Source of the DNA: Aestuariivirga sp.
GTDB taxonomy: Bacteria > Pseudomonadota > Alphaproteobacteria > Rhizobiales > Aestuariivirgaceae
DNA length: 64,000 nt
Direction of reading: 5' to 3'
Assembly (NCBI RefSeq): GCF_041738905.1
Contig: NZ_JBGSOZ010000151.1
Location: 5,829 to 69,828, forward strand
Position numbers and translations under genes: made by a program. Positions 9,245-22,480 of the stretch are shown here, in pieces (position 1 is the first letter of the stretch; the number at the start of each line of letters is the position of its first letter). The notes under the pieces were generated by a model. It was not told where the DNA came from. It saw nothing but the letters and a program-made list of their open reading frames with translations, and made no database searches.

Positions 9245-9507
9245 TGTCACCACCTCGGGTTCTGTCACCACCTCAGTTCTCAGGTGGTGACAGAAATAAT
9301 CGTGATAAATCAACGTTGTCACCACTGTCACCACCTGCACCACCAACTTCTTTTCCTTTTGCTATAGGAGTGTGTCCCCTGTTTTTTTCTTCCACATACG
9401 ATGTAAGGGAAAAAGGTGGTGACAGGTGGTGACAGTGGTGACAGCGTTGTTATTGCTTGGGGTTTTTTGTCACCACCTTGCGACGGAAGTGGTGACAGGT
9501 GGTGACA
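9245..9507. repeat. Array of 11 TGTCACCAC 9-mers in mirror arrangement; putative replication origin
   Basis: Forward copies at 9245, 9263, 9317, 9326, 9468; reverse copies within 9282-9292, 9414-9443 (three) and 9489-9507 (two); T/A-rich core 9349-9413. Confidence 0.75.
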
Positions 9508-10420: not shown

Positions 10421-10981
10421 ATGGTCCGTGGACGCAAACGCAAGCCTGGCAAGCGCTACCCCTGTGGCAAGCGCACGAAACAGGAGCTGGAGAAGGATGC
10501 CATGAGCACGGTGATTGACGCACGCCAAAGGCAATTCGGTGTAACAGCAAAGCAGGCACGAGATGAACGGCTGGGGACGGCATTGGGCCGGCTCGCCTTC
10601 AAGCAGATGATCAGCGAAACACAATACCAGGCCGGCGTCGCCTTTGCCCAACTGTATCACCACCATCACGTGGCGATCGGCCTGCCATCCCCCAGCCCGC
10701 GCTCGGTGGCAGGTCTCCTCATCAACGAGGGTATTATCGGCAGCGCTCCCAGCGAGCCCGTACTCGAGGTCACCGAGAAGCTGAAGCGGCGGTTCCGTGA
10801 TGCAACCGATGCGCTCGATGCGTGCGACCGTGAGCATCGCCTGTCAGCGGGCAGACGGCCTACGCTGCTGATCTACCGTGTTGTCTGCACCGACGAGGAC
10901 GCCATGCACTGGAAAGAAGAGGACTTGGGCAACCTGCGAGTGGCCCTCAATGCGCTGGTGCGGGTGTTCCGCTTACGGTGA
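10421..10981 (+). CDS. Phage protein, possible late-gene regulator
   Basis: Basic N-terminus GRKRKPGKRYPCGKR; last early gene before the late promoter. Function inferred from position only. Confidence 0.45.
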   Translation: MVRGRKRKPGKRYPCGKRTKQELEKDAMSTVIDARQRQFGVTAKQARDERLGTALGRLAFKQMISETQYQAGVAFAQLYHHHHVAIGLPSPSPRSVAGLLINEGIIGSAPSEPVLEVTEKLKRRFRDATDALDACDREHRLSAGRRPTLLIYRVVCTDEDAMHWKEEDLGNLRVALNALVRVFRLR

Positions 10982-11044
10982 TTTGCAGTGACGTTTGATG
11001 CGTTCCCGTCTTCGGACGGCAGCGCCGTGTAAGCGCCAACTGGC

Positions 11045-11770
11045 TCAGCGACGGTCCCAGCGTTCGACTTCTTCTGCCACCAACCTTTGCAGCTGCCAGA
11101 GATTGCGGTCGCGGATGCCGTGTTCCTCTAGCTTCAGTACAGTCTGGTAAAGATATTCAGCGCTGGAACCATAGTGGCCACACGCGTGGGCAAGACGCAA
11201 AGCCACCGCCTCAAGCGGCAGTCGCAGCGAGATGCCCCGCCCCGACGGGCCCGCCCAGAACACCAGAGCGCGAATCGATGCTTCAGCGGTCACGACTGAG
11301 ATCCACCGGGCCATGCCTAAATCTTCGTGCGCGGTAATCTCGCGCCGCACGAGCCGATGAACAATGTCGGAAACTTCTGCTTCGGGCAGTCGAAGCAGAA
11401 GGCCTGCGCATCGGCCGCCACGGGCAAGCGCCATCATGAGGCCAGGGAGTTCTGGTGTTCCTCGCCAGCGTGTCTGCTCGATGCAGAACGCCCGATGCCA
11501 TCCAAGTGCCGTGCCGCGCCGATATTCCGCAACCCCAAAGCTCGGGTTCCAGATCAGTGAGCCATAGCCGAAGACCCAAAGAGGACCCTCTGGTCGGTCC
11601 GCGAGCAGCCGCTCAGTCAATGCTGACCGTACCTCATCCCTTAGGGGCGTGTAATCAGGATTCGGACCCGGATCGATCTCGGCCCGAAAACAGCGGGCAA
11701 CCAACTCAGGCGTCAGCGCCAACTTGCGCCCGCGCCTATCTCTGACATGTAGATCAGCTTCCAATGTCAC
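11045..11770 (-). CDS. chaC: ChaC-family gamma-glutamylcyclotransferase (cargo)
   Basis: WVFGYGSLIWNP, GWHRAFC, RGTPELPGL, GSSAEYL. Confidence 0.9.
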   Translation of the reverse strand: MTLEADLHVRDRRGRKLALTPELVARCFRAEIDPGPNPDYTPLRDEVRSALTERLLADRPEGPLWVFGYGSLIWNPSFGVAEYRRGTALGWHRAFCIEQTRWRGTPELPGLMMALARGGRCAGLLLRLPEAEVSDIVHRLVRREITAHEDLGMARWISVVTAEASIRALVFWAGPSGRGISLRLPLEAVALRLAHACGHYGSSAEYLYQTVLKLEEHGIRDRNLWQLQRLVAEEVERWDRR

Positions 11771-12015
11771 GTCTCTAGCCCAAAGGAACGACAGCCAAGA
11801 TAAAGCACAGTCCTCGTTCGTGATCCCAGCACCGCCGTTGTGATCACAATGCCAACTAATGCATACTACATCAACGCATCACTTTTGTCCCATTTCTTGA
11901 AGCGCTTTCCCCAAAGCGGTCGTGCAGGCCTTGCGGTTGTGAGTTCTAATTGGTATGCGAGTGGAACTGGAATCCAACTTACTAGAAAAATGTTCAGATT
12001 ACTTGAAATTGTCTG

Positions 12016-12044
12016 TTGACATGTGTCAGCGGCACCAATAAAAG
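12016..12044 (+). promoter_or_regulatory. Sigma70-type promoter, putative phage late promoter
   Basis: TTGACA (12016-21), 17-bp spacer, TAAAAG (12039-44); AGCTCA...TGAGCT inverted repeat just downstream. Confidence 0.65.
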
Positions 12045-12115
12045 TTCTGTTATTGAAAGCTCAGAAATGTGTCCGGAGTTGAGCTCTTCCGATGTGACGA
12101 GCCAGATGAATTCAC

Positions 12116-12383
12116 GGGTCCTTCCGCGTAGAGAAGCGTAGAGGGGGGGCTCAGCGCAGCATCCCGCTAGCGTCAGGGTTCCAATTTGGGGTCCCAGTTT
12201 CCAGTTTCCACCCCACAACGATCGCATCACGCGGACAGCATCGATTGAAAACACGCCCGTTTTATCGGGTCTTTCGTATTTTAAGCTTTGGCGGTGTTGG
12301 TGGAAACCTTGGGTGGAAACCTCCGGTACAAGGTTCCATTTTCCAGGCACCAGGTTTCCACTTCGGGTTCCACCCGGTTTCCA
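12116..12383 (+). other. Putative lambda-like cos packaging site (cosQ-cosN-cosB)
   Basis: GGGTCCT at 12116-22, G-run GGGGGGGCTCAGCGC from 12143, then about 9 GTT(T)CCA/TGGAAAC repeats; GpA-type terminase downstream. Confidence 0.6.
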
Positions 12384-12398
12384 CGCCATGAGGTATCG

Positions 12399-13664
12399 AT
12401 GATCCCCGAGAGTTACGCCCTCGAGCGCGTGGACGTGTCTGTGCTGTCAGGTTTTGCCGGCAATCCGCGCACGCATTCCGAAATCCAGATCAAACAGATC
12501 GCTGCCAGCATCCGTGAATTTGGCTGGACCAATCCGATCCTCGTCGATGCCACGGGCACAATCATTGCCGGACACGGGCGGCTTGCGGCGGCGAAGGAAC
12601 TGGGACTGCAACAGGTGCCGGTCATCCGGTTGGGCCATCTGTCGGACGCGCAGCGCAAGGCACTCGTCATTGCCGATAACCAGCTGGCGCTCAACGCCGG
12701 ATGGGACGAGGCAGCGCTGTCGGTGCTGATCCAGGAACTCGACGCCGAGAAGTTCGAACTCGACCTCCTGGGCTTTGCGACAGACGACCTCGACCGCTAT
12801 CTTGCGGGCCTCGATAATGGAGACGCAGCGGCCGCTGAGGAAGCTGAACTTCCCGAGTTTCCTGTCGTCGCAACATCACGGCCGGGCGATCTGTGGATCC
12901 TTGGGAACCATCGGCTACTGTGTGGTGATGCCAGGGTCGTCACAGACGTTGAGCGTCTGATGGACGGCCAGCTCGCGGACATGGTTTTTTGCGATCCACC
13001 TTACAATGTCGACTATGGCAATTCCGCCAAGGACAAAATGCGCGGCAAGGACAGGCGCATCCTCAATGATGCCTTGGGCGAGGGCTTCTATCAATTTCTC
13101 TACGATGCCTGCGTCAACATGCTGATGGTGACCAAGGGCGCCTTTTACATCTGCATGAGTTCCTCCGAGCTCCACACGCTACAGAAGGCCTTCACCGACG
13201 CCGGCGGCAAGTGGTCGACATTCGTCATCTGGGCGAAGAATAGTTTTACGCTGGGCCGTGCCGACTACCAGCGGCAGTATGAACCCATCCTCTATGGCTG
13301 GAAGCAGGGTGCCGACCACTTTTGGTGTGGGGCCCGCGACCAGGGCGATGTGTGGTTCGTCGACAAGCCCCGTGTCAACGATCTCCACCCCACCATGAAG
13401 CCGGTCGAACTCGTCGAGCGTGCGATTCGCAACAGCAGCAAGAGCCGCGATATCGTTCTCGATCCTTTTGGCGGTTCTGGTACGACGCTCATCGCTGCTG
13501 AGCGCTCTGGCCGGTCAGCACGACTTCTGGAACTCGACCCCAAATACATGGACGTGATAGTCGAGCGCTGGCAGAATCTCACAGGCGGTGTCGCAGTGTT
13601 GGAAGCCGAGGACCGGACCTTTGATGACGTGAAGGCGAGCCGCTGTGTTGTTGCAGCACCTTGA
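12399..13664 (+). CDS. ParB-like N-terminal domain + N6A/N4C DNA methyltransferase (beta class)
   Basis: IIAGHGRLAAA (ParB/Srx); DPPYN precedes VLDPFGGSGTT. Confidence 0.9.
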   Translation: MIPESYALERVDVSVLSGFAGNPRTHSEIQIKQIAASIREFGWTNPILVDATGTIIAGHGRLAAAKELGLQQVPVIRLGHLSDAQRKALVIADNQLALNAGWDEAALSVLIQELDAEKFELDLLGFATDDLDRYLAGLDNGDAAAAEEAELPEFPVVATSRPGDLWILGNHRLLCGDARVVTDVERLMDGQLADMVFCDPPYNVDYGNSAKDKMRGKDRRILNDALGEGFYQFLYDACVNMLMVTKGAFYICMSSSELHTLQKAFTDAGGKWSTFVIWAKNSFTLGRADYQRQYEPILYGWKQGADHFWCGARDQGDVWFVDKPRVNDLHPTMKPVELVERAIRNSSKSRDIVLDPFGGSGTTLIAAERSGRSARLLELDPKYMDVIVERWQNLTGGVAVLEAEDRTFDDVKASRCVVAAP

Positions 13665-13874
13665 CCCGCTATTATTGATTGATCTTCTCGCAAATTTAGC
13701 CCCAAGGTTGCGATCTGAGCCTCGGAGCAAAGTTTTATGGGTCCTCGACGCTTCGAGCTCGTGGTCTGCGTGGATGAGTAATCATTGCCATCTCCTCCGC
13801 AGGTCTTGCCTTTTTGAACAGGCAATCAGCCATCTTATGAATTAAACTGACATATGGCGTCAAATTTCAACTGT

Positions 13875-14261
13875 ATGACGAAGCAGCTGCACGCTTGGGC
13901 ACGCATTATCAAGAGAGATGTGCATGCCCTCTATCTGGCAAGCCGTGATCCGCGCGTGCCGTGGTATGCCAAAGCGCTGGCAGTTGTCGTGGCCGGCTAC
14001 GCAATTTCGCCGATTGACCTCATCCCGGATTTCATCCCGGTACTGGGATATCTCGATGACGTAGTGCTCTTGCCCCTGGGAATCTATCTCGTGGTGAAGC
14101 TTATTCCACCAGATATCATGGCAGAGCATCGTGCCCTGGCAGACGCCGCCCAGGAACGGCCTGTCAGTCGGCTGGCCGCGGTGATAATCATATTACTCTG
14201 GATTGCATCGGTCATACTGGCAGGCTGGCTGGCTTACCATTATCTGTGGGCGGCACCGTGA
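13875..14261 (+). CDS. YkvA/DUF1232 membrane protein (cargo)
   Basis: DPRVPWYAK, YAISPIDLIPDFIPVLGYLDD. Confidence 0.9.
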   Translation: MTKQLHAWARIIKRDVHALYLASRDPRVPWYAKALAVVVAGYAISPIDLIPDFIPVLGYLDDVVLLPLGIYLVVKLIPPDIMAEHRALADAAQERPVSRLAAVIIILLWIASVILAGWLAYHYLWAAP

Positions 14262-15256
14262 GTAGACTTGGCAAGGTTTTCACCTACACAATTCTTTTGA
14301 TCTGGACGCTTGTGTGTCTCATCCCGATTTATTGGGTGGCGATTACCTCCTTCAAGAGCGTGGAGAACATCGACAAGCCGCCCGGCTATTTTCCATTTGT
14401 CGATTACATACCGTCTCTGGATGCGTGGCGCTTCATCCTGTTTGACCAGAGTGAAAGCCTCGTGACGCGCTTTCTCAATTCGGCGGTGATTGGGGGTGCA
14501 GCTACAGTTTTGACGATTGTTGTCAGCGGTATGGCAATCTACGGGTTGACCCGGTTTCCACCGGCAACCCGCTGGACAACTATTGCATGTGCCGCCGTTG
14601 CAGCCGCGTGTGCTTTGGCAGGCATTTCAGTCTCGGGTGAGTTACTGCGGGGCGGGCTTTTCGCCGGAGCAGTAGCCAGCTTAATCCTGGCCGTCGGCCT
14701 CCGCAGGCGAGGGCCTGCCATGTCGGCGTCCACCATTATAGCCCTGATGCTGGCAACCCGCATTTTGCCGCCCATCATCCTGATGATTCCACTCTACATG
14801 CTCGCCATGGTGACCGGTACACGGGATACGCATGCGGCCATGATCTTTGTCTATACCGCCATCAATGTGCCAGTGGCCGTCTGGCTTCTCCTGCCGGTTC
14901 TTGGCCCTCGGGCAACCGAGCAGGAAGAGGCCGCTCAACTCGATGGTGCTTCTCACTTCGGCATTTTTTTCACCATCCTGCTGCCGATGGTGAAGGCGGG
15001 TGTCGCAGCCGCCGGCCTGATTGTCTTTTTGATGTGCTGGAATGAGTACCTCTTCGCAGTTTATCTGACGGCTGACCACGCGCTGACGTTACCGCCTTGG
15101 GCAGTGGGTCAACTTTCCATGAAAGAGGCGCAGGTTGGAGGAGAGGCGGAAGAGTGGGCGCACCTATCGGCGGCCACGATCCTGATGATGATTCCCGCTC
15201 TGATATTTAGCGTTTTTGTCCAGAAACATCTCGGCCGCAGTATTGTTGGCAGATAG
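14258..15256 (+). CDS. Carbohydrate ABC transporter permease, orphan (cargo)
   Basis: PIYWVAITSFK, EEAAQLDGAS (EAA motif), FLMCWNEYLFA. Confidence 0.85.
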   Translation: MSRLGKVFTYTILLIWTLVCLIPIYWVAITSFKSVENIDKPPGYFPFVDYIPSLDAWRFILFDQSESLVTRFLNSAVIGGAATVLTIVVSGMAIYGLTRFPPATRWTTIACAAVAAACALAGISVSGELLRGGLFAGAVASLILAVGLRRRGPAMSASTIIALMLATRILPPIILMIPLYMLAMVTGTRDTHAAMIFVYTAINVPVAVWLLLPVLGPRATEQEEAAQLDGASHFGIFFTILLPMVKAGVAAAGLIVFLMCWNEYLFAVYLTADHALTLPPWAVGQLSMKEAQVGGEAEEWAHLSAATILMMIPALIFSVFVQKHLGRSIVGR

Positions 15257-15365
15257 CCGGTTCCAAGATTGTTAAGGCTATGGTCAAGCGTTGTGGCACT
15301 GGTCGTGACCTGTGCAAAAGCAGTATTAGGCCGCTGGCCAAGAGGACTGCGGTCGCTGACGGCGT

Positions 15366-15944
15366 TTACGGACGCACCTTGTACACGCGGCCTCGGGTTT
15401 CGATCTTCTCGGACTCGATGGTGAGGCCGAGCTTCTTCTTGAGGGCACCTGCCATCGCGCCGCGCACCGTGTGAGATTGCCATCCGGTTGTGGCGACAAG
15501 ATCTTCGATGGTGGCGCCTTCCGGGCGCTGCAGCATTGCGATTATGGCAGCCTGTTTGGTGCCGTCACGCGTTTTGCGTTCCTTGGGAGCAGTCGCGGGT
15601 GTGAGCGGGGCTTCAACGTCGCCTGTGATTATTGCCGCTTCCGAGGATGTGGGAGATTCTGCGGCCGTGAGTGCGGCTGCTTCGGACTCTATCCCGAGTG
15701 CCGCCACTCCCGCTGCCGTGATGACGAGCGTGACGCCGTAACCATCGCCAGTCTCGCACCACAGGGGGGTACCAAGCTTGCGATTTGCTTCAACCTCTTC
15801 GAGGAGGCCCTTTTCGATGAGCGGATTGATCACCTTGTGGGCGGCGGCGCCCTTGAGGTTCGGCGGCAGTGGCAGCGCCAGATGGTTATCACGCTGCGCG
15901 GCAGCGCTGAGAACGATGAGTTGGGTATCGGAAAGTCTTGTCAT
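15366..15944 (-). CDS. DUF3489-domain protein
   Basis: MTRLSDTQLIVLSAAAQR; GTKQAAIIAMLQRPEGATI...GWQSHTVRG. Confidence 0.85.
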   Translation of the reverse strand: MTRLSDTQLIVLSAAAQRDNHLALPLPPNLKGAAAHKVINPLIEKGLLEEVEANRKLGTPLWCETGDGYGVTLVITAAGVAALGIESEAAALTAAESPTSSEAAIITGDVEAPLTPATAPKERKTRDGTKQAAIIAMLQRPEGATIEDLVATTGWQSHTVRGAMAGALKKKLGLTIESEKIETRGRVYKVRP

Positions 15945-16050
15945 TGGCGGTCGGCTCCTTTGGGCCGTGAGCCAGCGGGGATCGCCGGCTTCTACGACCC
16001 CGAGCCCCGCAATCAGACGGGGGCGGAGACTCGGCGTCCAATGAAGCGCT

Positions 16051-16272
16051 CTATTCGGCGTGCTCGCCTTCGTGGAAGGCGCTGTCGGTGATGCGCTTGA
16101 GGAGTTCGGCGTAGTGGCTGAGCGTTCCGACGTGACCCCAGTGGATCGTCTCGGGATCAGCACCGAAGTGATCGTCGCTGAGGGCCCGAAGGCGGGCGAG
16201 CATCGCGTCGATCTCGGCCTTCTTCGCGATGAAGGCGGCACCCGCCTTGCTGTTGTCTGAGGGTTTGCGCAT
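16051..16272 (-). CDS. Small prophage hypothetical protein
   Basis: AFIAKKAEIDAMLARL...HWGHVGTLSHYAELLKRITD; SD upstream; lies beside DUF3489. Confidence 0.65.
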   Translation of the reverse strand: MRKPSDNSKAGAAFIAKKAEIDAMLARLRALSDDHFGADPETIHWGHVGTLSHYAELLKRITDSAFHEGEHAE

Positions 16273-16379: not shown

Positions 16380-16928
16380 ATGGGATTGTCGATCCGCGCC
16401 TACGCCGCCCATCGCGGTGTCAGCCATACGAGTGTCCGGAAGGCCATTGCCTCGGGACGGGTGACGCTGGAGCCGGATGGCAGCATCGACCCCGTAAAGA
16501 CCGACCGCAGCTGGGTGCAGAATGCAGATCCGTCGAAGGCCCGTGCGCCCCGGATCCTCAAGCCAGTGCCGGAAGCGGCTGTGAGCGCGGTGCGGGAGAC
16601 CCTCTCGGAGTCGGGTTCACCTCTTGTGGGCGGCATGAGCTACCTGCATGCCAAGACGGCAGAGAAGGTGCTCACCGTGCAGTTGCTGCGCGAGAAGCTC
16701 AGGCGTGAGAAGGGCGAAGTGGTCGAACGGGACTATGCCATCGAGCAGGGGTTCGCCTTTGCCCGCCGCATCCGAGACAGCTGGACTGGCTGGCCCGCAC
16801 GTGTCGCAGCCCTCATGGCGGCCGATCTCGTGGTAGACGTCCACAAGCTCGAGGCGCTGCTCAATACCCATGTCCGCGAACAGCTCAAGGCCTCAGCGGG
16901 AGACGACCTCAATCTCCGCGGCACATGA
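16380..16928 (+). CDS. Terminase small subunit (Nu1-like)
   Basis: N-terminal HTH (SIRAYAAHRGVSHTSVRKAI); overlaps the large subunit. Confidence 0.75.
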   Translation: MGLSIRAYAAHRGVSHTSVRKAIASGRVTLEPDGSIDPVKTDRSWVQNADPSKARAPRILKPVPEAAVSAVRETLSESGSPLVGGMSYLHAKTAEKVLTVQLLREKLRREKGEVVERDYAIEQGFAFARRIRDSWTGWPARVAALMAADLVVDVHKLEALLNTHVREQLKASAGDDLNLRGT

Positions 16929-18849
16929 CTACGAAGGCAACCGCCAGTTTCTCCGAAGCCTCACCGATGGCCTGACGCCGGACCCGCCGATGACCGTTGC
17001 GGAGTGGGCGGACACCTATCGCATCCTGTCCGGCAGGGCCGCAGCGGAAGCTGGAAAGTACAGGACATCGCGCACACCCTACATGCGCGAGATCATGGAG
17101 AGCCTGTCGCCCTCGAGCCCCATCGAGCGGGTGGTGTTCATGAAAGCAGCTCAGACCGGGGCGACGGAGGCTGGAAACAACTTCATCGGGTTCATCATCC
17201 ACCAGGCACCGGGTCCAATCCTTGCCGTGCAGCCGACGGTGGAACTGGCCAAGCGCAACTCGCAGCAGCGCATTGATCCACTCATTGAGGACAGCGCCGA
17301 GCTTCGGAAGATCGTGGCGCCGGCACGCTCCCGCGACAGCGGCAACACGGTGCTGGCAAAGCGGTTCCCCGGCGGACAGCTTGTGCTGACCGGTGCCAAC
17401 AGCGCAACGGGGCTTCGCTCCATGCCGGCCCGTTATGTGTTCCTCGACGAGGTCGATGCCTATCCCGGTGATGTGGATGGAGAGGGGGACCCGATTGCAC
17501 TGGCCGAAGTCCGCACCGCCACCTTCGGACACCGCAAGAAGCTGTTCCTGGTTTCGACACCGACGATCAAGGGTCTGTCACGCATCGAACGCGAATACGA
17601 TGCCTCGGATCAGCGGCGCTATTTCGTGCCGTGCCCGCATTGCGGAACCATGCAGTGGCTGCAGTTCGAACGGTTGCGCTGGGAGAAGGGCAGCCCGGGA
17701 ACAGCTGCCTACATCTGTCAATCCTGCGAGTTACCGATCACGGAAGCGGCCAAGACCGAGATGCTGGCGAAGGGCGAATGGCGTGCCACGGCAGAAGGCA
17801 ACAATACACGGACCCGCGGCTATCATCTCTCAGGCCTCTATTCGCCGGTAGGCTGGACCAGCTGGGCCGACATCGCAAGAAGCTGGGACGAGGCCCAGCA
17901 CAATGACGCGGCGCTCAAGACGGCCAAGAACGTGCTGCTGGGCGAGACCTGGATGGAGTCGGGCGAAGCGCCCGACTGGCAGCGCCTCTATGACCGGCGT
18001 GAACAGTGGAAGGTTGGCACCGTTCCGGAAAACGGACTCTTCCTCACGGCTGGTGCCGACGTCCAGAAGGATCGTATCGAGGTCGATGTCTGGGCCTGGG
18101 GGCGGGGGCTTGAAAGCTGGCTCATCGATCATGTTGTGATCGAGGGCGGACCCAGCGATCCGGGCTGCTGGCTCAAGCTGACAAGGCTTCTTTCGCAGAC
18201 CTGGGCCCATGCCAGCGGCCAGCACATGACGATTGCGCGGCTGGCCATCGACACAGGCTTCGAGACCAGTGCTGTTTATGCGTGGTCTCGGGCTGTGGGC
18301 TTCGCACAGGTGGCACCCGTCAAAGGCGTCGAAGGCTTCAACCGGGCGAGCCCGGTGACAGGTCCAACATTCGTGGATGCGACTATCGCAGGCAAAAGGC
18401 TCCGACGCGGTGCGAGGCTGTGGACAGTCGCCACCTCGACCTTCAAGGCCGAGACCTATCGCTTCCTGCGGCAGGACCAGCCGACCCGTGAAGAAATTAC
18501 TGCCGGTGCGATGGTCCCGCCCGGCACCATCCATCTGCCGGACTGGGCTGATGGCGAATGGTTGAAACAGCTGACCGCCGAGCAGCTGGTAACGGTCAAG
18601 ACGAAACGCGGCTTCCAGCGGCTCGAATGGCAGAAGCTTCGCGAACGCAACGAAGCGCTCGATGTTCGCGTCTATGCCCGCGCAGCCGCATGGATCGCCG
18701 GTGCCGACCGCTGGTCGGAGGCGCACTGGCAGGAACTGGAGCGGCAGTTGGCTGTCGATACTGAGGGGCTTGCTGGCCCTGAGCCGGTCAAATCCAGCGC
18801 CCGGCCGTCGGCGCAGCGTCGGACGGTCAGGTCGAGTTACATGGGGTGA
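16870..18849 (+). CDS. Terminase large subunit, GpA family (start uncertain)
   Basis: KAAQTGATE, FLDEVDAYP, STPTIKG, YFVPCPHC, GADVQKDR, NEALD. Confidence 0.95.
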   Translation: MSANSSRPQRETTSISAAHDYEGNRQFLRSLTDGLTPDPPMTVAEWADTYRILSGRAAAEAGKYRTSRTPYMREIMESLSPSSPIERVVFMKAAQTGATEAGNNFIGFIIHQAPGPILAVQPTVELAKRNSQQRIDPLIEDSAELRKIVAPARSRDSGNTVLAKRFPGGQLVLTGANSATGLRSMPARYVFLDEVDAYPGDVDGEGDPIALAEVRTATFGHRKKLFLVSTPTIKGLSRIEREYDASDQRRYFVPCPHCGTMQWLQFERLRWEKGSPGTAAYICQSCELPITEAAKTEMLAKGEWRATAEGNNTRTRGYHLSGLYSPVGWTSWADIARSWDEAQHNDAALKTAKNVLLGETWMESGEAPDWQRLYDRREQWKVGTVPENGLFLTAGADVQKDRIEVDVWAWGRGLESWLIDHVVIEGGPSDPGCWLKLTRLLSQTWAHASGQHMTIARLAIDTGFETSAVYAWSRAVGFAQVAPVKGVEGFNRASPVTGPTFVDATIAGKRLRRGARLWTVATSTFKAETYRFLRQDQPTREEITAGAMVPPGTIHLPDWADGEWLKQLTAEQLVTVKTKRGFQRLEWQKLRERNEALDVRVYARAAAWIAGADRWSEAHWQELERQLAVDTEGLAGPEPVKSSARPSAQRRTVRSSYMG

Positions 18850-18854
18850 CCGTG

Positions 18855-19070
18855 ATGGCGACACTCACAGATCTCCGCGCCAGGCGTGAGACACTGGCGG
18901 TGCAACGGTCATCGGGCGTGGCCCGCGTCAGCTACGAGGGACGGAGTGTCGACTATCGCAGCGTGGCCGAGATCGACCGCGCCATCGAGGCACTCGATCG
19001 CGAGATCGTGGCCGCTGAGGGGCGCCGCATCGTCCGGCATCTGCGCGTGACGACGGCAAAGGGGCTCTGA
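18855..19070 (+). CDS. gpW-like head completion protein
   Basis: Small ORF between terminase and portal; VSYEGRSVDY. Confidence 0.75.
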   Translation: MATLTDLRARRETLAVQRSSGVARVSYEGRSVDYRSVAEIDRAIEALDREIVAAEGRRIVRHLRVTTAKGL

Positions 19071-19074
19071 CGCC

Positions 19075-20592
19075 ATGGGCCTGTTCGATCTGTTCCGCCG
19101 CCGTGGGGCCGGCGGCCCGGCTGCCATGCGTGCTCGTCTCGAAGGGGCCATGGCGAAGCGGCGATTACGGGGATGGAACCCGCCGCTCGAGAACATCAAC
19201 ACGCTGGTGGCCTCGGGCGGCCCGCGGCTTCTGGCACGCGCGCGCGAACTGGTCGTCACCAATGGCTATGCCGCAAATGCCTGCGAGGCTTTCGCGGCGA
19301 ACCTTGTCGGCGATGGCATCAAGCCGTCGTCGCTGACGGCAAATGCGGAACTCCGCGATCGCATCCAGCGGCTCTGGCTCGCCTGGACCGACGAGGCGGA
19401 TGCCGACGGGCTGACCGATTTCTACGGCCTGCAGGCAATGGTGGCGCGCGAGATGTTCGTGGCGGGCGAATGTTTCGTCCGGCTGCGCCCGCGCCGGGCG
19501 GAGGATGGATTGCTGGTGCCGCTGCAACTGCAGCTCCTGCAATCGGAGATGCTGCCCTTCGACAAGATGGAGACGGGATCAAACGGCAACCGCATCCGCT
19601 GCGGCATCGAGTTTGACGCCATCGGCCGGCGCGTGGCCTATCATTTCCGCAGACGACATCCCGGCGACAGCACCGACCAGGGGATGGTGATCCCTGAGAC
19701 AGTGCGTGTGCCGGCTGCCAACGTGTTGCACATTTACCGGCCGATCGACGCCGGCCAGATCCGTGGCTTGCCGCATGTGGCGCCCGCCATGGTGCGGTTG
19801 TTCCTGCTCGATCAGTACGACGATGCCGAGCTCGACCGCAAGAAGACCGCAGCGATGTTCGCAGGCTTCATTACCAAGACCGCACCGGAAGAATCCATGA
19901 TGGGCGAGACGCATGCCGACCCTGAGGGCACTGCCATTGCCAGCCTTGAGCCCGGCACCATGCAGGTGCTGCTACCGGGGGAGGACGTGAAGTTCTCGAG
20001 CCCTGCCGACGTGGGCGGTGGTTACGAGGCCTTCCAGTACCGCACACTGCTCGCCGTCTCGGCTTCGCTGGGATTGCCCTATCACCTGGTGACGGGGGAC
20101 GTGCGGCAGGCAAATTATTCGAGCTTGCGCGCCGAGCTCGTCGAATTCCGCCGCCGCATGCAGCAGCTCCAATACGGCGTCATGGCACATCAGCTCTGCC
20201 GCCCGATCTGGGCGCGCTGGATGGAAACGGCATTGCTGGCGGGCGCGATCGAGCTTGATGATGCGGTGACCGCGCGCGCAGTTCAGTGGATTCCACCGCG
20301 TTGGGACTGGGTCGATCCCTTGAAGGACATCCAGGCACAGGTACTGGCGATGGAGGCAGGCATCACCTCACGGCGCAAGGTGGTCGAAGCCACAGGCTAC
20401 GACATCGAGGAAGTGGACCGCGAGAACGCCACGGACATGAAGCGTGCCGCCGATCTGGGCCTTGGTTATCGCACCGGCCCCGGCACGACGCAGGGTGCGC
20501 GGGCAACCCCTGCAACCCGGCCCGATCCCGGCGATGGCACGAGCGATAACAACGGCACCGGGACGACCGATCCCGCTACCGAACAGGAGTAA
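19075..20592 (+). CDS. Portal protein, lambda family
   Basis: RGLPHVAP, DAELDRKK, NYSSLRA, WVDPLKD. Confidence 0.95.
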   Translation: MGLFDLFRRRGAGGPAAMRARLEGAMAKRRLRGWNPPLENINTLVASGGPRLLARARELVVTNGYAANACEAFAANLVGDGIKPSSLTANAELRDRIQRLWLAWTDEADADGLTDFYGLQAMVAREMFVAGECFVRLRPRRAEDGLLVPLQLQLLQSEMLPFDKMETGSNGNRIRCGIEFDAIGRRVAYHFRRRHPGDSTDQGMVIPETVRVPAANVLHIYRPIDAGQIRGLPHVAPAMVRLFLLDQYDDAELDRKKTAAMFAGFITKTAPEESMMGETHADPEGTAIASLEPGTMQVLLPGEDVKFSSPADVGGGYEAFQYRTLLAVSASLGLPYHLVTGDVRQANYSSLRAELVEFRRRMQQLQYGVMAHQLCRPIWARWMETALLAGAIELDDAVTARAVQWIPPRWDWVDPLKDIQAQVLAMEAGITSRRKVVEATGYDIEEVDRENATDMKRAADLGLGYRTGPGTTQGARATPATRPDPGDGTSDNNGTGTTDPATEQE

Positions 20593-20596
20593 TTCC

Positions 20597-21625
20597 ATGA
20601 ACAGCTGGTACACGATCCGCGCCCGCGCAACGGGTGCGGAAGTGGCGATCTATGACGAGATCGGCGCCCATGGCGTCTCGGCGAAAGGCTTCCTCGCCGA
20701 GCTTGGCGCGCTGCCCGAGGGAACGCCCATCGATCTCAGGCTGAACAGCCCGAGTGGGTCGGTCTTTGATGCTGTGGCGATCTATAACGCGATCAAGCGC
20801 CATGAAGGCCCAGTCACGGTCTGGATCGATGGCATCGCCGCCTCGGCTGCCTCCTACGTGGCGATGGCGGGCGACGAGATTGTCATGCCTGAGAACGCCT
20901 TCCTGATGATCCACGATCCGGCCGGCCTCGTGATGGGCACGGCGGATGACATGCGCGCTATGGCTGATGCGCTCGACAAGGTGAAGGGCAGCCTGGTGCA
21001 GGGCTACGCCTCGAAGTCCGGCCGCGACCCGCAAAATATTGCCGCGTTGATGGCGGCCGAGACCTGGTTCGACGCGAAGGAAGCACTGGACGCAGGACTT
21101 GCCACCCGCATCGCCGAGCCCGTGCGCATTGCCGCGCGCTTCGACATCGCCCGCTTCCGCAATGCACCCCCTGCGCTGATCGAGGCGGCGGAGCCCGACA
21201 CGCCGGAAACCGTTCCGGAAGGGAACGGTTTGGAGGGCGACCCGGTCGTCAGTGGCCTCGAACCGGATGACATTGCTGATGATGCCAGCGCCGATGAACA
21301 ACCCGGCTCTGCCGAGGGGCATGTCAAGCACGCCAACATGCCCGCACCCGCGAGTGGGGCACCGGCCGATGCCGCGGCAATCCGAGCGGAGACCATCGCA
21401 CATGCCCGTGCCGTCATCGATCTCTGCCGCCTCGCCCGTCAGCCGCAGATGGCGGGCCGCTTCCTCGAGCAGAACGCAAGCCTCGACGAGGTTCGCGCTG
21501 CACTTCTGGCCGCGAAGTCAGACGCCGAGCCCGAGATCACGCCGCACCACCCGCAACCCGGCCGCAAGTCAGCCGCCCGCCCCTGGGGCGAAATTGTCGC
21601 CCGCACCTTCAAACTGAAAGGATGA
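20597..21625 (+). CDS. ClpP-type prohead protease/scaffold
   Basis: IYDEIG, NSPSG, GIAASAAS, LMIHDP, ETWFDAKEA; acidic Pro-rich tail. Confidence 0.9.
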   Translation: MNSWYTIRARATGAEVAIYDEIGAHGVSAKGFLAELGALPEGTPIDLRLNSPSGSVFDAVAIYNAIKRHEGPVTVWIDGIAASAASYVAMAGDEIVMPENAFLMIHDPAGLVMGTADDMRAMADALDKVKGSLVQGYASKSGRDPQNIAALMAAETWFDAKEALDAGLATRIAEPVRIAARFDIARFRNAPPALIEAAEPDTPETVPEGNGLEGDPVVSGLEPDDIADDASADEQPGSAEGHVKHANMPAPASGAPADAAAIRAETIAHARAVIDLCRLARQPQMAGRFLEQNASLDEVRAALLAAKSDAEPEITPHHPQPGRKSAARPWGEIVARTFKLKG

Positions 21626-21629
21626 CCCC

Positions 21630-21995
21630 ATGACCACACTCGTCGAAGGCAAGCACGCTGGCCACTTCCTCGTCTGGGAAGCGTTCCGCGACTATACCCG
21701 CGAAACCGTCACCATCGCGTCCGGCACGCTCGAGGCCGGCACCGTGCTCGGCAAGATCACGGTCGGTGGCAAGTATGCCGCACACAATCCTGCAGCCACC
21801 AACGGCACCCAGACGGCCGTCGCCGTGCTCTGGGGCAAGGCCGATGCGTCGGGCGGGGATGCAGCCGCCCTTGCTGTCGTCCGCGGCCCGGCAATCGTCA
21901 ATCGCCACGACCTCGTCTTCGCAGGCACTCCGTCCGGACCAGAAATCGCCGCGGCGCATGCTGCTCTGCTCGCCGTCGGCATCCTCGTCCGCTGA
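21630..21995 (+). CDS. Head decoration protein
   Basis: GTVLGKIT...GKY...A(V)AVL; position between protease and capsid. Confidence 0.8.
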   Translation: MTTLVEGKHAGHFLVWEAFRDYTRETVTIASGTLEAGTVLGKITVGGKYAAHNPAATNGTQTAVAVLWGKADASGGDAAALAVVRGPAIVNRHDLVFAGTPSGPEIAAAHAALLAVGILVR

Positions 21996-22045: not shown

Positions 22046-22480
22046 ATGGCCACAATGGACATCTTCGAAGGCGATGCCTTCACCATCATCGAACTCACTC
22101 GCGCGCTCGAGAACATCCCCTTCAAGCCGGCACTGCTCTCGGGCTCGAATCTCTTCAGCCCCCGTGGCGTGCGGGCGCGCACCGTGATGATCGAGAGCCG
22201 GGACGGCACGCTGTCGCTGATCCCGTTCTCGGAACGAGGCTCGGCCTACGAGCAGCAGGTGACCGGGTCCGAGCTCGTCTTCATTGCCGAGACAGCAATG
22301 TCGACGATCCGCAAGAAGACGGCTGATGGCGCTTTGGAAATGCCATCACCGGCATCTGGCGAAGTGACGCTGAAGCTCAACCCGGCAGAAACCCGCCTGT
22401 TTGCGGTCGGCCGCCTGAGAAGCCGCTACGAGTTCGAGCGGCGTATTGGTGGCACCGAGGAAACATTGGTGTGCGGGTGA
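22046..22480 (+). pseudogene. Major capsid protein N-terminal ~72 aa fused in frame to the C-terminal part of a distal tail-region protein
   Basis: Begins like a lambda gpE-family capsid (MDIFEGDAFT...SLIPFSERGS) but is only 144 aa; sequence after ~22260 is unrelated to capsid. Confidence 0.75.

What the first reader, a model, noticed from the sequence alone, without database searches (positions are those of the whole stretch)
12116..12383. Recognisable lambda-like cos site 4 kb upstream of the terminase genes
Seen: ACGGGTCCT, then 20 nt, then GGGGGGGCTCAGCGC, then about 9 GTT(T)CCA/TGGAAAC repeats in both orientations around an AT-rich spacer. Known: lambda cosQ is GGGTCCT, about 23 nt before the G-rich cosN nick, followed by the small-terminase R sites. 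Inference: intact packaging signal, separated from terminase by the methyltransferase and cargo genes.
Basis: partly seen in the sequence, partly recalled or inferred. Interest (0 to 1): 0.65.

Follow-up and report, generated by a model that had tools for sequence, protein, structure and literature searches.

The report
Lambda-type cos site in defective prophage
This stretch is a genuine phage DNA-packaging (cos) site of the lambda kind: it lines up base for base with the known genome ends of lambda and of related Rhodobacter phages, but the prophage carrying it has lost its capsid and tail genes, so it is a well-supported and fairly ordinary feature.

Summary
ACGGGTCCT lies at 12114-12122, then 20 nt, then GGGGGGGCTCAGCGC at 12143-12157. 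Nine exact G[GT]TTCCA copies follow in both orientations, 12177-12383.

The nearby TerL is gpA-family (31% identical to lambda gpA). Its closest isolated relatives are the Rhodobacter RcC phages (62-63% TerL identity), whose published defined ends carry 11-nt 5' overhangs. Their joined ends, and lambda's, align with the window without meaningful gaps. This puts the nicks at 12143/12144 and 12154/12155, with overhang GGGGGGCTCAG.

The same cosQ-cosN block lies upstream of TerL in 31 of 80 related genome loci, in at least 120 IMG/VR contigs and in phage AcaML1. It is usually followed by a ParB-domain gene, with terS 2.6-8 kb further on, so the 4.2-kb separation is normal for this family.

The heptamer repeats differ between lineages and co-vary with the helix-turn-helix motif of TerS, not with ParB. 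That supports them as cosB sites bound by TerS.

Caveats: the prophage is defective (about 905 bp deleted in the capsid gene, no tail genes), shows no excess sequencing depth, has no IHF consensus, and its TerS is not detectably Nu1-like. No physical ends could be tested.

A new member of a known kind.

The parts
12114..12128 (+). cosQ block. The GGGTCCT heptamer is 12116-12122, within the conserved ACGGGTCCTTCCGCG.
   Evidence: Identical heptamer in lambda 23 nt before its right end. Columns G12, T14, C16, T17 and C20 are invariant in the 11-sequence alignment A1.
12144..12154 (+). cosN: inferred 11-nt 5' cohesive end GGGGGGCTCAG. Top-strand nick 12143/12144, bottom-strand nick 12154/12155.
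   Evidence: Base 1 of RcKemmy and RcBaka (defined ends, 11-nt 5' overhang, PMC8601537) and both lambda nicks align to these columns. The position is inferred by homology, not measured.
12155..12173 (+). Conserved right flank of cosN (CGCAGCATCCCGCTAGCGT).
   Evidence: CGC (12155-12157) and CTA (12167-12169) are invariant in all 11 sequences, including lambda. The block recurs in 31 genome loci and at least 120 viral contigs.
12177..12210 (+). cosB proximal repeats, forward: GGTTCCA 12177, GGTCCCA 12190 (degenerate), GTTTCCA 12197 and 12204.
   Evidence: Same positions (+34 to +61 from the nick) in L008, L009 and L012.
12211..12300 (.). Spacer between the repeat groups, mildly AT-rich. No IHF consensus. 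Contains a weak hairpin at 12255-12270.
12301..12320 (-). cosB inverted repeats (GTGGAAACC twice).
   Evidence: Inverted copies lie at the same distance in L008, L009 and L012.
12332..12383 (+). cosB distal forward repeats, starting at 12332, 12339 (degenerate), 12354, 12366 and 12377.
12399..13664 (+). ParB_N + N6/N4 DNA methyltransferase fusion; first gene after cos.
   Evidence: Pfam PF02195 + PF01555. A ParB-domain gene follows cos within about 400 nt in 30 of 35 loci.
13854..15256 (+). Cargo: a DUF1232 protein (13854-14261) and an ABC-permease-like protein (14246-15256). Absent from the closest relative, L008.
15366..16241 (-). DUF3489 protein (phrog_10315), reverse strand.
16380..16928 (+). 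Small terminase subunit (phrog_57). N-terminal helix-turn-helix with the motif RGVSHTSVRKAI.
16870..18849 (+). Large terminase subunit, gpA family (ATPase + nuclease).
   Evidence: Pfam PF05876 + PF20454. 31% identity to lambda gpA, E = 4e-70.
18846..21995 (+). gpW-like adaptor, lambda-family portal, ClpP-type prohead protease and gpD-like decoration protein.
22046..22480 (+). Remnant of the major capsid gene. An approximately 905-bp deletion at 22260/22261 fuses the first ~72 codons to the next ORF. Homology to relatives ends at 22479.
   Evidence: Pfam match only to profile positions 4-56 of 329. blastn against L008 and L009. L008 has an intact 337-aa capsid ORF.

Best explanation
Region 12114-12384 is the cohesive-end packaging site (cos) of a lambda-like prophage with a gpA-family terminase. 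It has three parts.

1. cosQ (GGGTCCT, 12116-12122) and cosN are the elements read by the large subunit. TerL is inferred to nick the top strand between 12143 and 12144 and the bottom strand between 12154 and 12155, leaving 11-nt 5' ends (GGGGGGCTCAG).

2. The array of 9-11 GTTTCCA-type heptamers (12177-12383) is cosB. It runs forward group, spacer, two inverted copies, forward group. The N-terminal helix-turn-helix of the small subunit (16380-16928) is proposed to bind these repeats and so anchor TerL at cosN. Packaging would then proceed rightwards, through the ParB-methyltransferase gene towards the terminase and head genes.

3. Unlike lambda, cosB abuts a ParB-domain gene, and terS lies 4.2 kb away. 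That layout is typical of this large phage family.

What is shown: sequence homology to defined phage ends, conservation across relatives, and co-variation of TerS motif with repeat type. What is inferred: the exact nick positions, TerS binding, and present-day activity. The prophage lacks a capsid gene and tail genes, so the site could be used only with a helper phage of the same specificity.
For: - Terminase: TerL is gpA-family and 31% identical to lambda gpA.
- Closest isolated relatives: the RcC Rhodobacter phages, at 62-63% TerL identity. They have defined ends with 11-nt 5' overhangs (PMC8601537). Their records start GGGGGCGGAAGCGC...CTAGCGT...GGTTTCCAC x3 followed by a ParB gene, and end ...GGTTCTTCCGCG + 15 nt.
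- Alignment A1: the RcC junction and both lambda nicks fall in the same columns as window 12143/44 and 12154/55. Invariant columns lie in cosQ, in the CGC just after the overhang, and in CTA.
- Lambda's ends were checked on J02459.
- Conservation: the cosQ-cosN block is on the TerL strand upstream of TerL in 31 of 80 loci fetched by TerL homology alone. It is also in AcaML1, in at least 120 IMG/VR contigs, and in recognisable form in Wolbachia phage WO.
- Local constraint: window and L008 differ at 4 of 110 positions here, against about 81-85% identity in the flanking genes. A second element in the same metagenome shares an identical 68-nt core, 12108-12175.
- Repeat enrichment: 9 of 28 copies in 207 bp, with the same forward/inverted/forward layout in L008, L009 and L012.
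- Repeat type tracks the TerS HTH motif: SHT[SA]VxKAI with GTTTCCA; SRG[AG][IV]QKAR with GGAA[GT]CCA; TDTAVHKAI with GTTTGCA; SRQYVGQMV with CTTGACA; QKAK with GGACTCC. ParB-domain identity does not discriminate.
- A different iteron array (11 x TGTCACCAC, 9245-9507) is the better candidate for the replication origin.
Against: - No physical ends were seen. Only assembled contigs of the source hot-spring metagenome were available. Depth over the prophage equals the flank (about 17x), so there is no sign of induction.
- The contig break at 12137/12146 comes from a branch in the assembly graph caused by a second element, not from a DNA end.
- The prophage is defective.
- There is no IHF consensus in the spacer.
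- TerS shows no BLAST, Pfam or HMM similarity to Nu1. Its predicted fold is confident only for residues 1-45, with non-significant Foldseek hits.
- Placing the 11-nt overhang at the left end of the RcC records rests on convention and on the alignment with lambda, not on a statement in the paper.
- The co-variation involves few independent lineages for the non-majority classes.
Confidence: 0.85

Rival explanations
1. The site is a real cos by descent but is now a fossil. It sits in a decaying prophage, is never cleaved or packaged, and survives only because the deletion is recent.
For: The capsid gene has an approximately 905-bp deletion, and all genes downstream of it are missing. Depth equals the chromosomal flank. 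There is no second cos in the same orientation within the next 52 kb to terminate packaging.
Against: terS, terL, portal, protease and gpD are full-length. The cos core is identical over 68 nt to a second related element in the same samples, which could supply the missing functions. This rival concerns present activity, not identity, and is compatible with the main explanation.
Confidence: 0.4
2. The heptamer array is a binding or regulatory site for the adjacent ParB-domain methyltransferase (parS-like, or an operator for that gene), not a TerS site. Only cosQ and cosN belong to packaging.
For: A ParB-domain gene follows the array within about 400 nt in 30 of 35 loci. The last repeat ends 15 nt before the gene's start.
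Against: Repeat type co-varies with the TerS HTH motif, while ParB-domain identity is the same (44-56%) for carriers of different repeats. In AcaML1 the array is followed directly by a gene with the TerS-type HTH. Lambda has GTTTCC-core R sites and no ParB.
Confidence: 0.08
3. The repeats are replication-origin iterons or a chance low-complexity array, and the match to cosQ and cosN is coincidental.
For: Iteron-like arrays in both orientations around an A+T-richer spacer are also typical of origins.
Against: A separate, stronger iteron array lies next to the primase gene at 9245-9507. The cosQ-cosN block aligns without meaningful gaps to defined phage ends and is conserved in more than 150 loci. 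The array always lies on the TerL strand, just downstream of cosN.
Confidence: 0.03

Closest known systems
Bacteriophage lambda cos (cosQ-cosN-cosB; Feiss et al., PMC4669245)
   Same: gpA-family TerL (31% identity). Identical cosQ heptamer GGGTCCT within ACGGGTCCTT. G-rich 5' cohesive end followed by CGC. Repeats with a GTTTCC core arranged forward, spacer, inverted, forward downstream of cosN. cosQ and cosN are conserved while cosB specificity varies between relatives.
   Different: cosQ lies 21 nt from the nick, not 23. The inferred overhang is 11 nt, not 12. There are 9-11 repeats instead of 3. There is no IHF consensus. TerS is not detectably homologous to Nu1. cosB abuts a ParB-methyltransferase gene, and terS lies 4.2 kb downstream.
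Rhodobacter capsulatus cluster RcC phages (RcKemmy MW677517, RcBaka MW677509; PMC8601537)
   Same: TerL 62-63% identical. TerS N-domain 54% identical, with the same SHTxVxKAI motif. The same GGTTTCCAC repeats. A ParB-domain gene is the first gene after the left end, and terS lies about 2 kb further on. The end sequences align without meaningful gaps to the window.
   Different: They are viable phages with measured ends. They have three repeats only. Their first gene has a ParB domain without the methyltransferase. The intervening and left-flank genes are unrelated.
Acidithiobacillus phage AcaML1 (JX507079) and the prophages L008/L009/L012 (Hyphomonas, Aestuariivirga)
   Same: The same cosQ-cosN block and GTTTCCA repeats. 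L008 has the same repeat layout, and its terS and terL products are 91-94% identical.
   Different: In AcaML1 a gene with the TerS-type HTH directly follows cos. L008 keeps an intact capsid gene and lacks the window's ChaC, DUF1232 and ABC-permease inserts.
cos sites of Gram-negative PICI satellites (PMC6739421, PMC9026076)
   Same: A lambda-like cos on an element that cannot make particles by itself.
   Different: PICIs carry no terminase or head genes and redirect the helper's TerS. This element keeps its own terS, terL, portal and protease, and it looks like a deletion derivative of a full prophage.

Membership tests
lambda-type cos site (gpA-class terminase) | A gpA-family large terminase encoded by the same element | tested here: met
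   PF05876 + PF20454, E = 1e-92 to 1e-98. 31% identity to lambda gpA.
lambda-type cos site (gpA-class terminase) | Conserved 7-bp cosQ about 20 nt upstream of the nick | tested here: met
   GGGTCCT at 12116-12122, 21 nt before the inferred nick. Lambda has the same heptamer 23 nt before its nick.
lambda-type cos site (gpA-class terminase) | cosN cut by staggered nicks that give 5' cohesive ends of about 11-12 nt | not testable with these tools
   Only homology is available: the defined RcC ends and the lambda nicks align to 12143/44 and 12154/55. No raw reads or virion DNA were available.
lambda-type cos site (gpA-class terminase) | cosB: several TerS-binding repeats downstream of cosN, with at least one inverted | tested here: met
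   A repeat array with forward/inverted/forward layout. Repeat type co-varies with the TerS HTH motif. Binding itself was not tested.
lambda-type cos site (gpA-class terminase) | IHF site (I1) between the first repeat group and the inverted repeat | tested here: not met
   No WATCAANNNNTTR match, with up to 1 mismatch, in 12211-12300. The consensus is from E. coli and may not apply to this host.
lambda-type cos site (gpA-class terminase) | cosB immediately precedes the small-terminase gene | tested here: not met
   terS starts at 16380, 4.2 kb from cosN. Across the family the distance is 2.6-8 kb.
lambda-type cos site (gpA-class terminase) | Small subunit of the Nu1 family (PF07471) with a winged helix-turn-helix | tested here: inconclusive
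   No BLAST, Pfam or HMM match to Nu1. The AlphaFold N-domain 1-45 is an HTH at pLDDT about 82. The best small Foldseek hits are Xis, BldC and RacA-type winged or MerR-like HTH domains, with E > 0.2.
RcC-cluster-type cos (Rhodobacter phages) | End sequences, GGTTTCCAC repeats, TerS SHTxVxKAI motif, and a ParB-domain gene as the first gene | tested here: met
PICI / satellite cos | The element lacks terminase and head genes and depends on redirecting a helper's terminase | tested here: not met
   Its own terS, terL, portal, protease and gpD are present.
replication-origin iterons | An array next to the initiator or primase gene that is the element's main iteron set | tested here: not met
   A distinct 11 x TGTCACCAC array lies at 9245-9507, after the primase region. 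The GTTTCCA array always follows cosN.

The most novel reading that the evidence does not exclude
A ParB-N-domain gene sits directly after cosB in 30 of 35 examined loci, from Rhodobacter RcC phages to prophages of many alphaproteobacteria. In AcaML1 (one of the five exceptions) the ParB-methylase follows about 2.2 kb further on. In Wolbachia phage WO (outside that set) the ParB-domain methylase gene starts about 50 nt after the putative cos. This near-constant placement may be functional. The ParB-domain protein could be an accessory factor of lambda-type packaging, for example loading at or spreading from cos, or assisting TerL nicking in the way HNH proteins assist HK97-type terminases. That would be a new component of a classic machine.
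Probability: 0.1. Interest if true: 0.65.

Novelty: new member of a known kind. Interest (0 to 1): 0.3.

Why it matters
It gives a sequence-level definition (cosQ, cosN, flank, cosB) for the packaging site of a very large and little-studied group of gpA-terminase phages and prophages of Alphaproteobacteria and beyond. It shows that the parts read by the large subunit have stayed recognisable all the way to lambda, while cosB and the TerS recognition helix have diversified together into at least five specificity classes. In practice it allows genome ends to be predicted for such prophages, including AcaML1 and probably Wolbachia phage WO, and it flags cos-bearing defective prophages that a matching helper might mobilise. 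For this particular window it is a routine annotation rather than a surprise.

Tried and rejected
- blastn of 11900-12450 against 50,697 phage records found no match. The conserved core is too short for BLAST.
- Contig breaks at 12137/12146 in three runs first looked like physical ends. A closer look showed a bridging 68-nt unitig and a second element sharing it, so the breaks are a branch in the assembly graph.
- IHF consensus in the spacer: none.
- Rfam on 11700-12450: none.
- Promoter and terminator scan: only one weak minus-strand promoter-like site and one weak hairpin, no more than in shuffles.
- TerS against Nu1 by BLAST, Pfam and a lambda-free profile against the PDB: no homology. An earlier profile hit to 1J9I arose only because the lambda row was in the alignment, and was discarded.
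- Genes flanking cos on the left (10421-10981) and DUF3489, compared with RcKemmy gp69 and gp4: unrelated.
- The Ralstonia prophage L006 has coding sequence directly upstream of its methylase, and no cos was found there.

Full report
**Observation.**
- ACGGGTCCT occupies 12114-12122, and the next 20 nt are 12123-12142.
- GGGGGGGCTCAGCGC is 12143-12157.
- Exact G[GT]TTCCA heptamers start at 12177, 12197, 12204, 12332, 12354, 12366 and 12377 on the + strand and at 12301 and 12314 on the - strand. Two degenerate copies lie at 12190 and 12339.
- The window holds 28 copies against 13.6 +/- 3.3 in shuffles, and nine of them lie within 207 bp.
- The composite cosQ-spacer-G-run occurs only once in the window.
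- The spacer is only mildly AT-rich.

**Context.** The site lies in a 628-bp intergenic region. Genes in order around it are as follows.
- Upstream: a Dda-like helicase, a Toprim/VapE primase, a histidine kinase and receiver pair, a RuvC-like resolvase, a phrog_15385 protein, and a ChaC-like gene on the minus strand.
- Downstream: a ParB_N + N6/N4 methyltransferase fusion (12399-13664), a DUF1232 protein, an ABC-permease-like protein, and a DUF3489 protein on the minus strand.
- Then the packaging and head genes: TerS (16380-16928, phrog_57), a gpA-family TerL (16870-18849), a gpW-like adaptor, a lambda-family portal, a ClpP-type protease and a gpD-like decoration protein.

TerL is 31% identical to lambda gpA (E = 4e-70).

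**Comparison with phages of known ends.** The closest isolated phages by TerL are the Rhodobacter capsulatus RcC cluster, at 62-63% identity.
- Their authors determined defined ends with 11-base 5' overhangs from read termini (PMC8601537, Table 3 and methods).
- The RcKemmy and RcBaka records begin [G/C]GGGGCGGAAGCGCGTTAAGTCCCTAGCGT, followed by three GGTTTCCAC repeats and then gene 1, a ParB-like protein. terS and terL lie about 2 kb further on.
- The records end ...GGTTCTTCCG[CG/GA]... plus 13-15 nt.
- Lambda's ends were read from J02459...ACGGGTCCTTTCCGGTGATCCGACAGGTTACG | GGGCGGCGACCTCGCGGGTTTTCGCTA, with GTTTCC-core R sites.

A MAFFT alignment was made of the window, three close prophages, AcaML1, the joined RcC ends, three Rhodobacterales prophages and the joined lambda ends (A1).
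- Columns are invariant in cosQ (window 12117, 12119, 12121, 12122, 12125), in the CGC at 12155-12157 and in the CTA at 12167-12169.
- RcKemmy base 1 aligns with window 12144.
- Lambda's two experimentally known nicks fall in the same columns as 12143/12144 and 12154/12155.
- The inferred cohesive end is therefore GGGGGGCTCAG. This is an inference by homology, probably good to within 1-2 nt.
- RcKemmy and RcBaka differ in G-run length but start at the same distance from CGGAAGCGC. This suggests the cut is measured from the cosB side.

**Conservation.**
- Eighty loci were fetched from GTDB genomes by TerL homology alone. Of these, 31 carry G4-8 C[GT]CAGCGC N9 CTAGCG on the TerL strand, 2.7-7 kb upstream of TerL, preceded by a cosQ-like GG[GT]TCCT.
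- AcaML1 has the block between gp22 and gp23. At least 120 IMG/VR contigs have the core.
- WOVitA1 has GGGTCCTTTCGG...GGCGGGTTTGGTGGG...CTAGTG between its RuvC-like and methylase genes.
- Window and L008 differ at 4 of 110 positions here, against 81-85% identity in the neighbouring genes.
- A ParB-domain gene follows the site within about 400 nt in 30 of 35 loci. terS lies 2.6-8 kb away in all but one of 86 loci.
Part of it here is a 1.76-kb cargo insert that L008 lacks.

**What binds the repeats.** cosQ and cosN are conserved, but the repeated heptamer differs between lineages. It tracks the helix-turn-helix of the TerS N-domain.

| TerS HTH motif | Repeat | Carriers |
|---|---|---|
| RGVSHT[SA]VxKAI | GTTTCCA | window, L008, L009, L012, RcC phages, AcaML1 gp23 |
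| GLSRG[AG][IV]QKAR | GGAA[GT]CCA | dozens of Rhodobacterales prophages and viral contigs |
| GVTDTAVHKAI | GTTTGCA | L126, L191, L203 |
| GVSRQYVGQMV | CTTGACA | L093, L130 |
| ...QKAK... | GGACTCC | L159, L173, L201 |

- TerS N-domain identity to the window is 54-63% for the distant GTTTCCA carriers and 35-46% (one short 36-residue match reaches 53%) for GGAAKCCA carriers, even though the latter have the more similar TerL.
- ParB-domain identity is 44-56% in both groups.
- This parallels lambda, 21 and N15, where cosB and the TerS recognition helix define packaging specificity while cosQ and cosN are shared (PMC4669245).
- It supports TerS, not ParB, as the repeat binder. The minority classes rest on few lineages, and binding is untested.
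- The forward/spacer/inverted/forward layout is conserved in L008, L009 and L012. It resembles R3-I1-R2-R1, but no IHF consensus is present.
- TerS shows no detectable homology to Nu1. Its N-terminal 45 residues are predicted as an HTH at pLDDT about 82, with only non-significant fold matches to Xis, BldC and RacA-type domains.

**State of the element.**
- Relative to L008 and L009, the window has an approximately 905-bp deletion at 22260/22261. It removes most of the capsid gene and fuses it to the next ORF. Homology ends at 22479.
- What follows are TauE, MFS, CusB-like and AcrB-like genes.
- The source is a hot-spring metagenome. Only assembled contigs were available, and depth over the prophage equals the flank.
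- Contigs break at 12137/12146 in three runs. A 68-nt unitig (12108-12175) bridges the gap and is shared with a second, L008-like element that diverges on both sides. The break is therefore an assembly-graph effect, not a DNA end.
- That second element shows that a phage with an identical cos core coexists in the community.

**Alternatives.**
- A separate array of 11 exact TGTCACCAC repeats at 9245-9507 is the better origin candidate.
- Rfam and the promoter/terminator scans gave nothing of note.

**Verdict.** It is a bona fide lambda-type cos, a new member of a known kind, residing in a defective prophage. Confidence is 0.85 for identity. Present-day activity is unknown.

Noticed in passing
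L007 4884-4945 (HQ906662.1, WOVitA1, about 16933-16994, reverse strand): Wolbachia phage WO has a cosQ-like GGGTCCTTTCGG, a G-rich stretch (GGCGGGTTTGGTGGG) and CTAGTG in the 113-bp gap between its RuvC-like gene and its ParB-methylase gene. This is the same position as the cos described here, so it is a candidate WO cos site.
   Followed up: partly
L005 2754-2860 (JX507079.1, about 16094-16200): Acidithiobacillus phage AcaML1 carries the same cosQ-cosN block and GTTTCCA repeats between gp22 and gp23. gp23 has the TerS-type N-terminal HTH (63% identical over 54 aa), although a different gene (gp33) is annotated as Nu1.
   Followed up: partly
loci L090-L209 and L008-L087: At least five pairings of TerS recognition-helix motif with cosB heptamer share one conserved cosQ-cosN core. 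terS lies 2.6-8 kb from cos in 85 of 86 loci. In L121 an HTH gene starts 125 nt after cosN.
   Followed up: partly
window 12108-12175: In the source metagenome, a second, L008-like element shares exactly this 68-nt core and diverges on both sides. Short high-depth unitigs (47-129x) with other cosB variants show several related cos phages in the same hot spring.
   Followed up: partly
window 22046-22480: The capsid remnant is an approximately 905-bp deletion relative to L008 and L009. It fuses capsid codon ~72 to the following 116-aa ORF. Loss of the downstream morphogenesis genes is a separate breakpoint at about 22479.
   Followed up: yes
window 10971-11948 and 13620-15381: The ChaC-like gene (11045-11770, minus strand) and the DUF1232 + ABC-permease-like pair are inserts absent from the closest relative, L008. 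They flank cos on either side, like morons. The lone BPD_transp_1 permease has no partner genes.
   Followed up: partly
window 9245-9507: Eleven exact TGTCACCAC repeats in both orientations lie between the response-regulator and RuvC-like genes, against 13 one-mismatch matches expected in the whole window. This is the likely replication origin of the element.
   Followed up: partly
IMG/VR loci L090, L106, L122, L128, L144, L151, L159, L162: About 8 of roughly 27 whole-contig loci begin 10-145 nt upstream of the cosN core, far more than chance. This could reflect either true ends or assembly breaks at the shared core.
   Followed up: no
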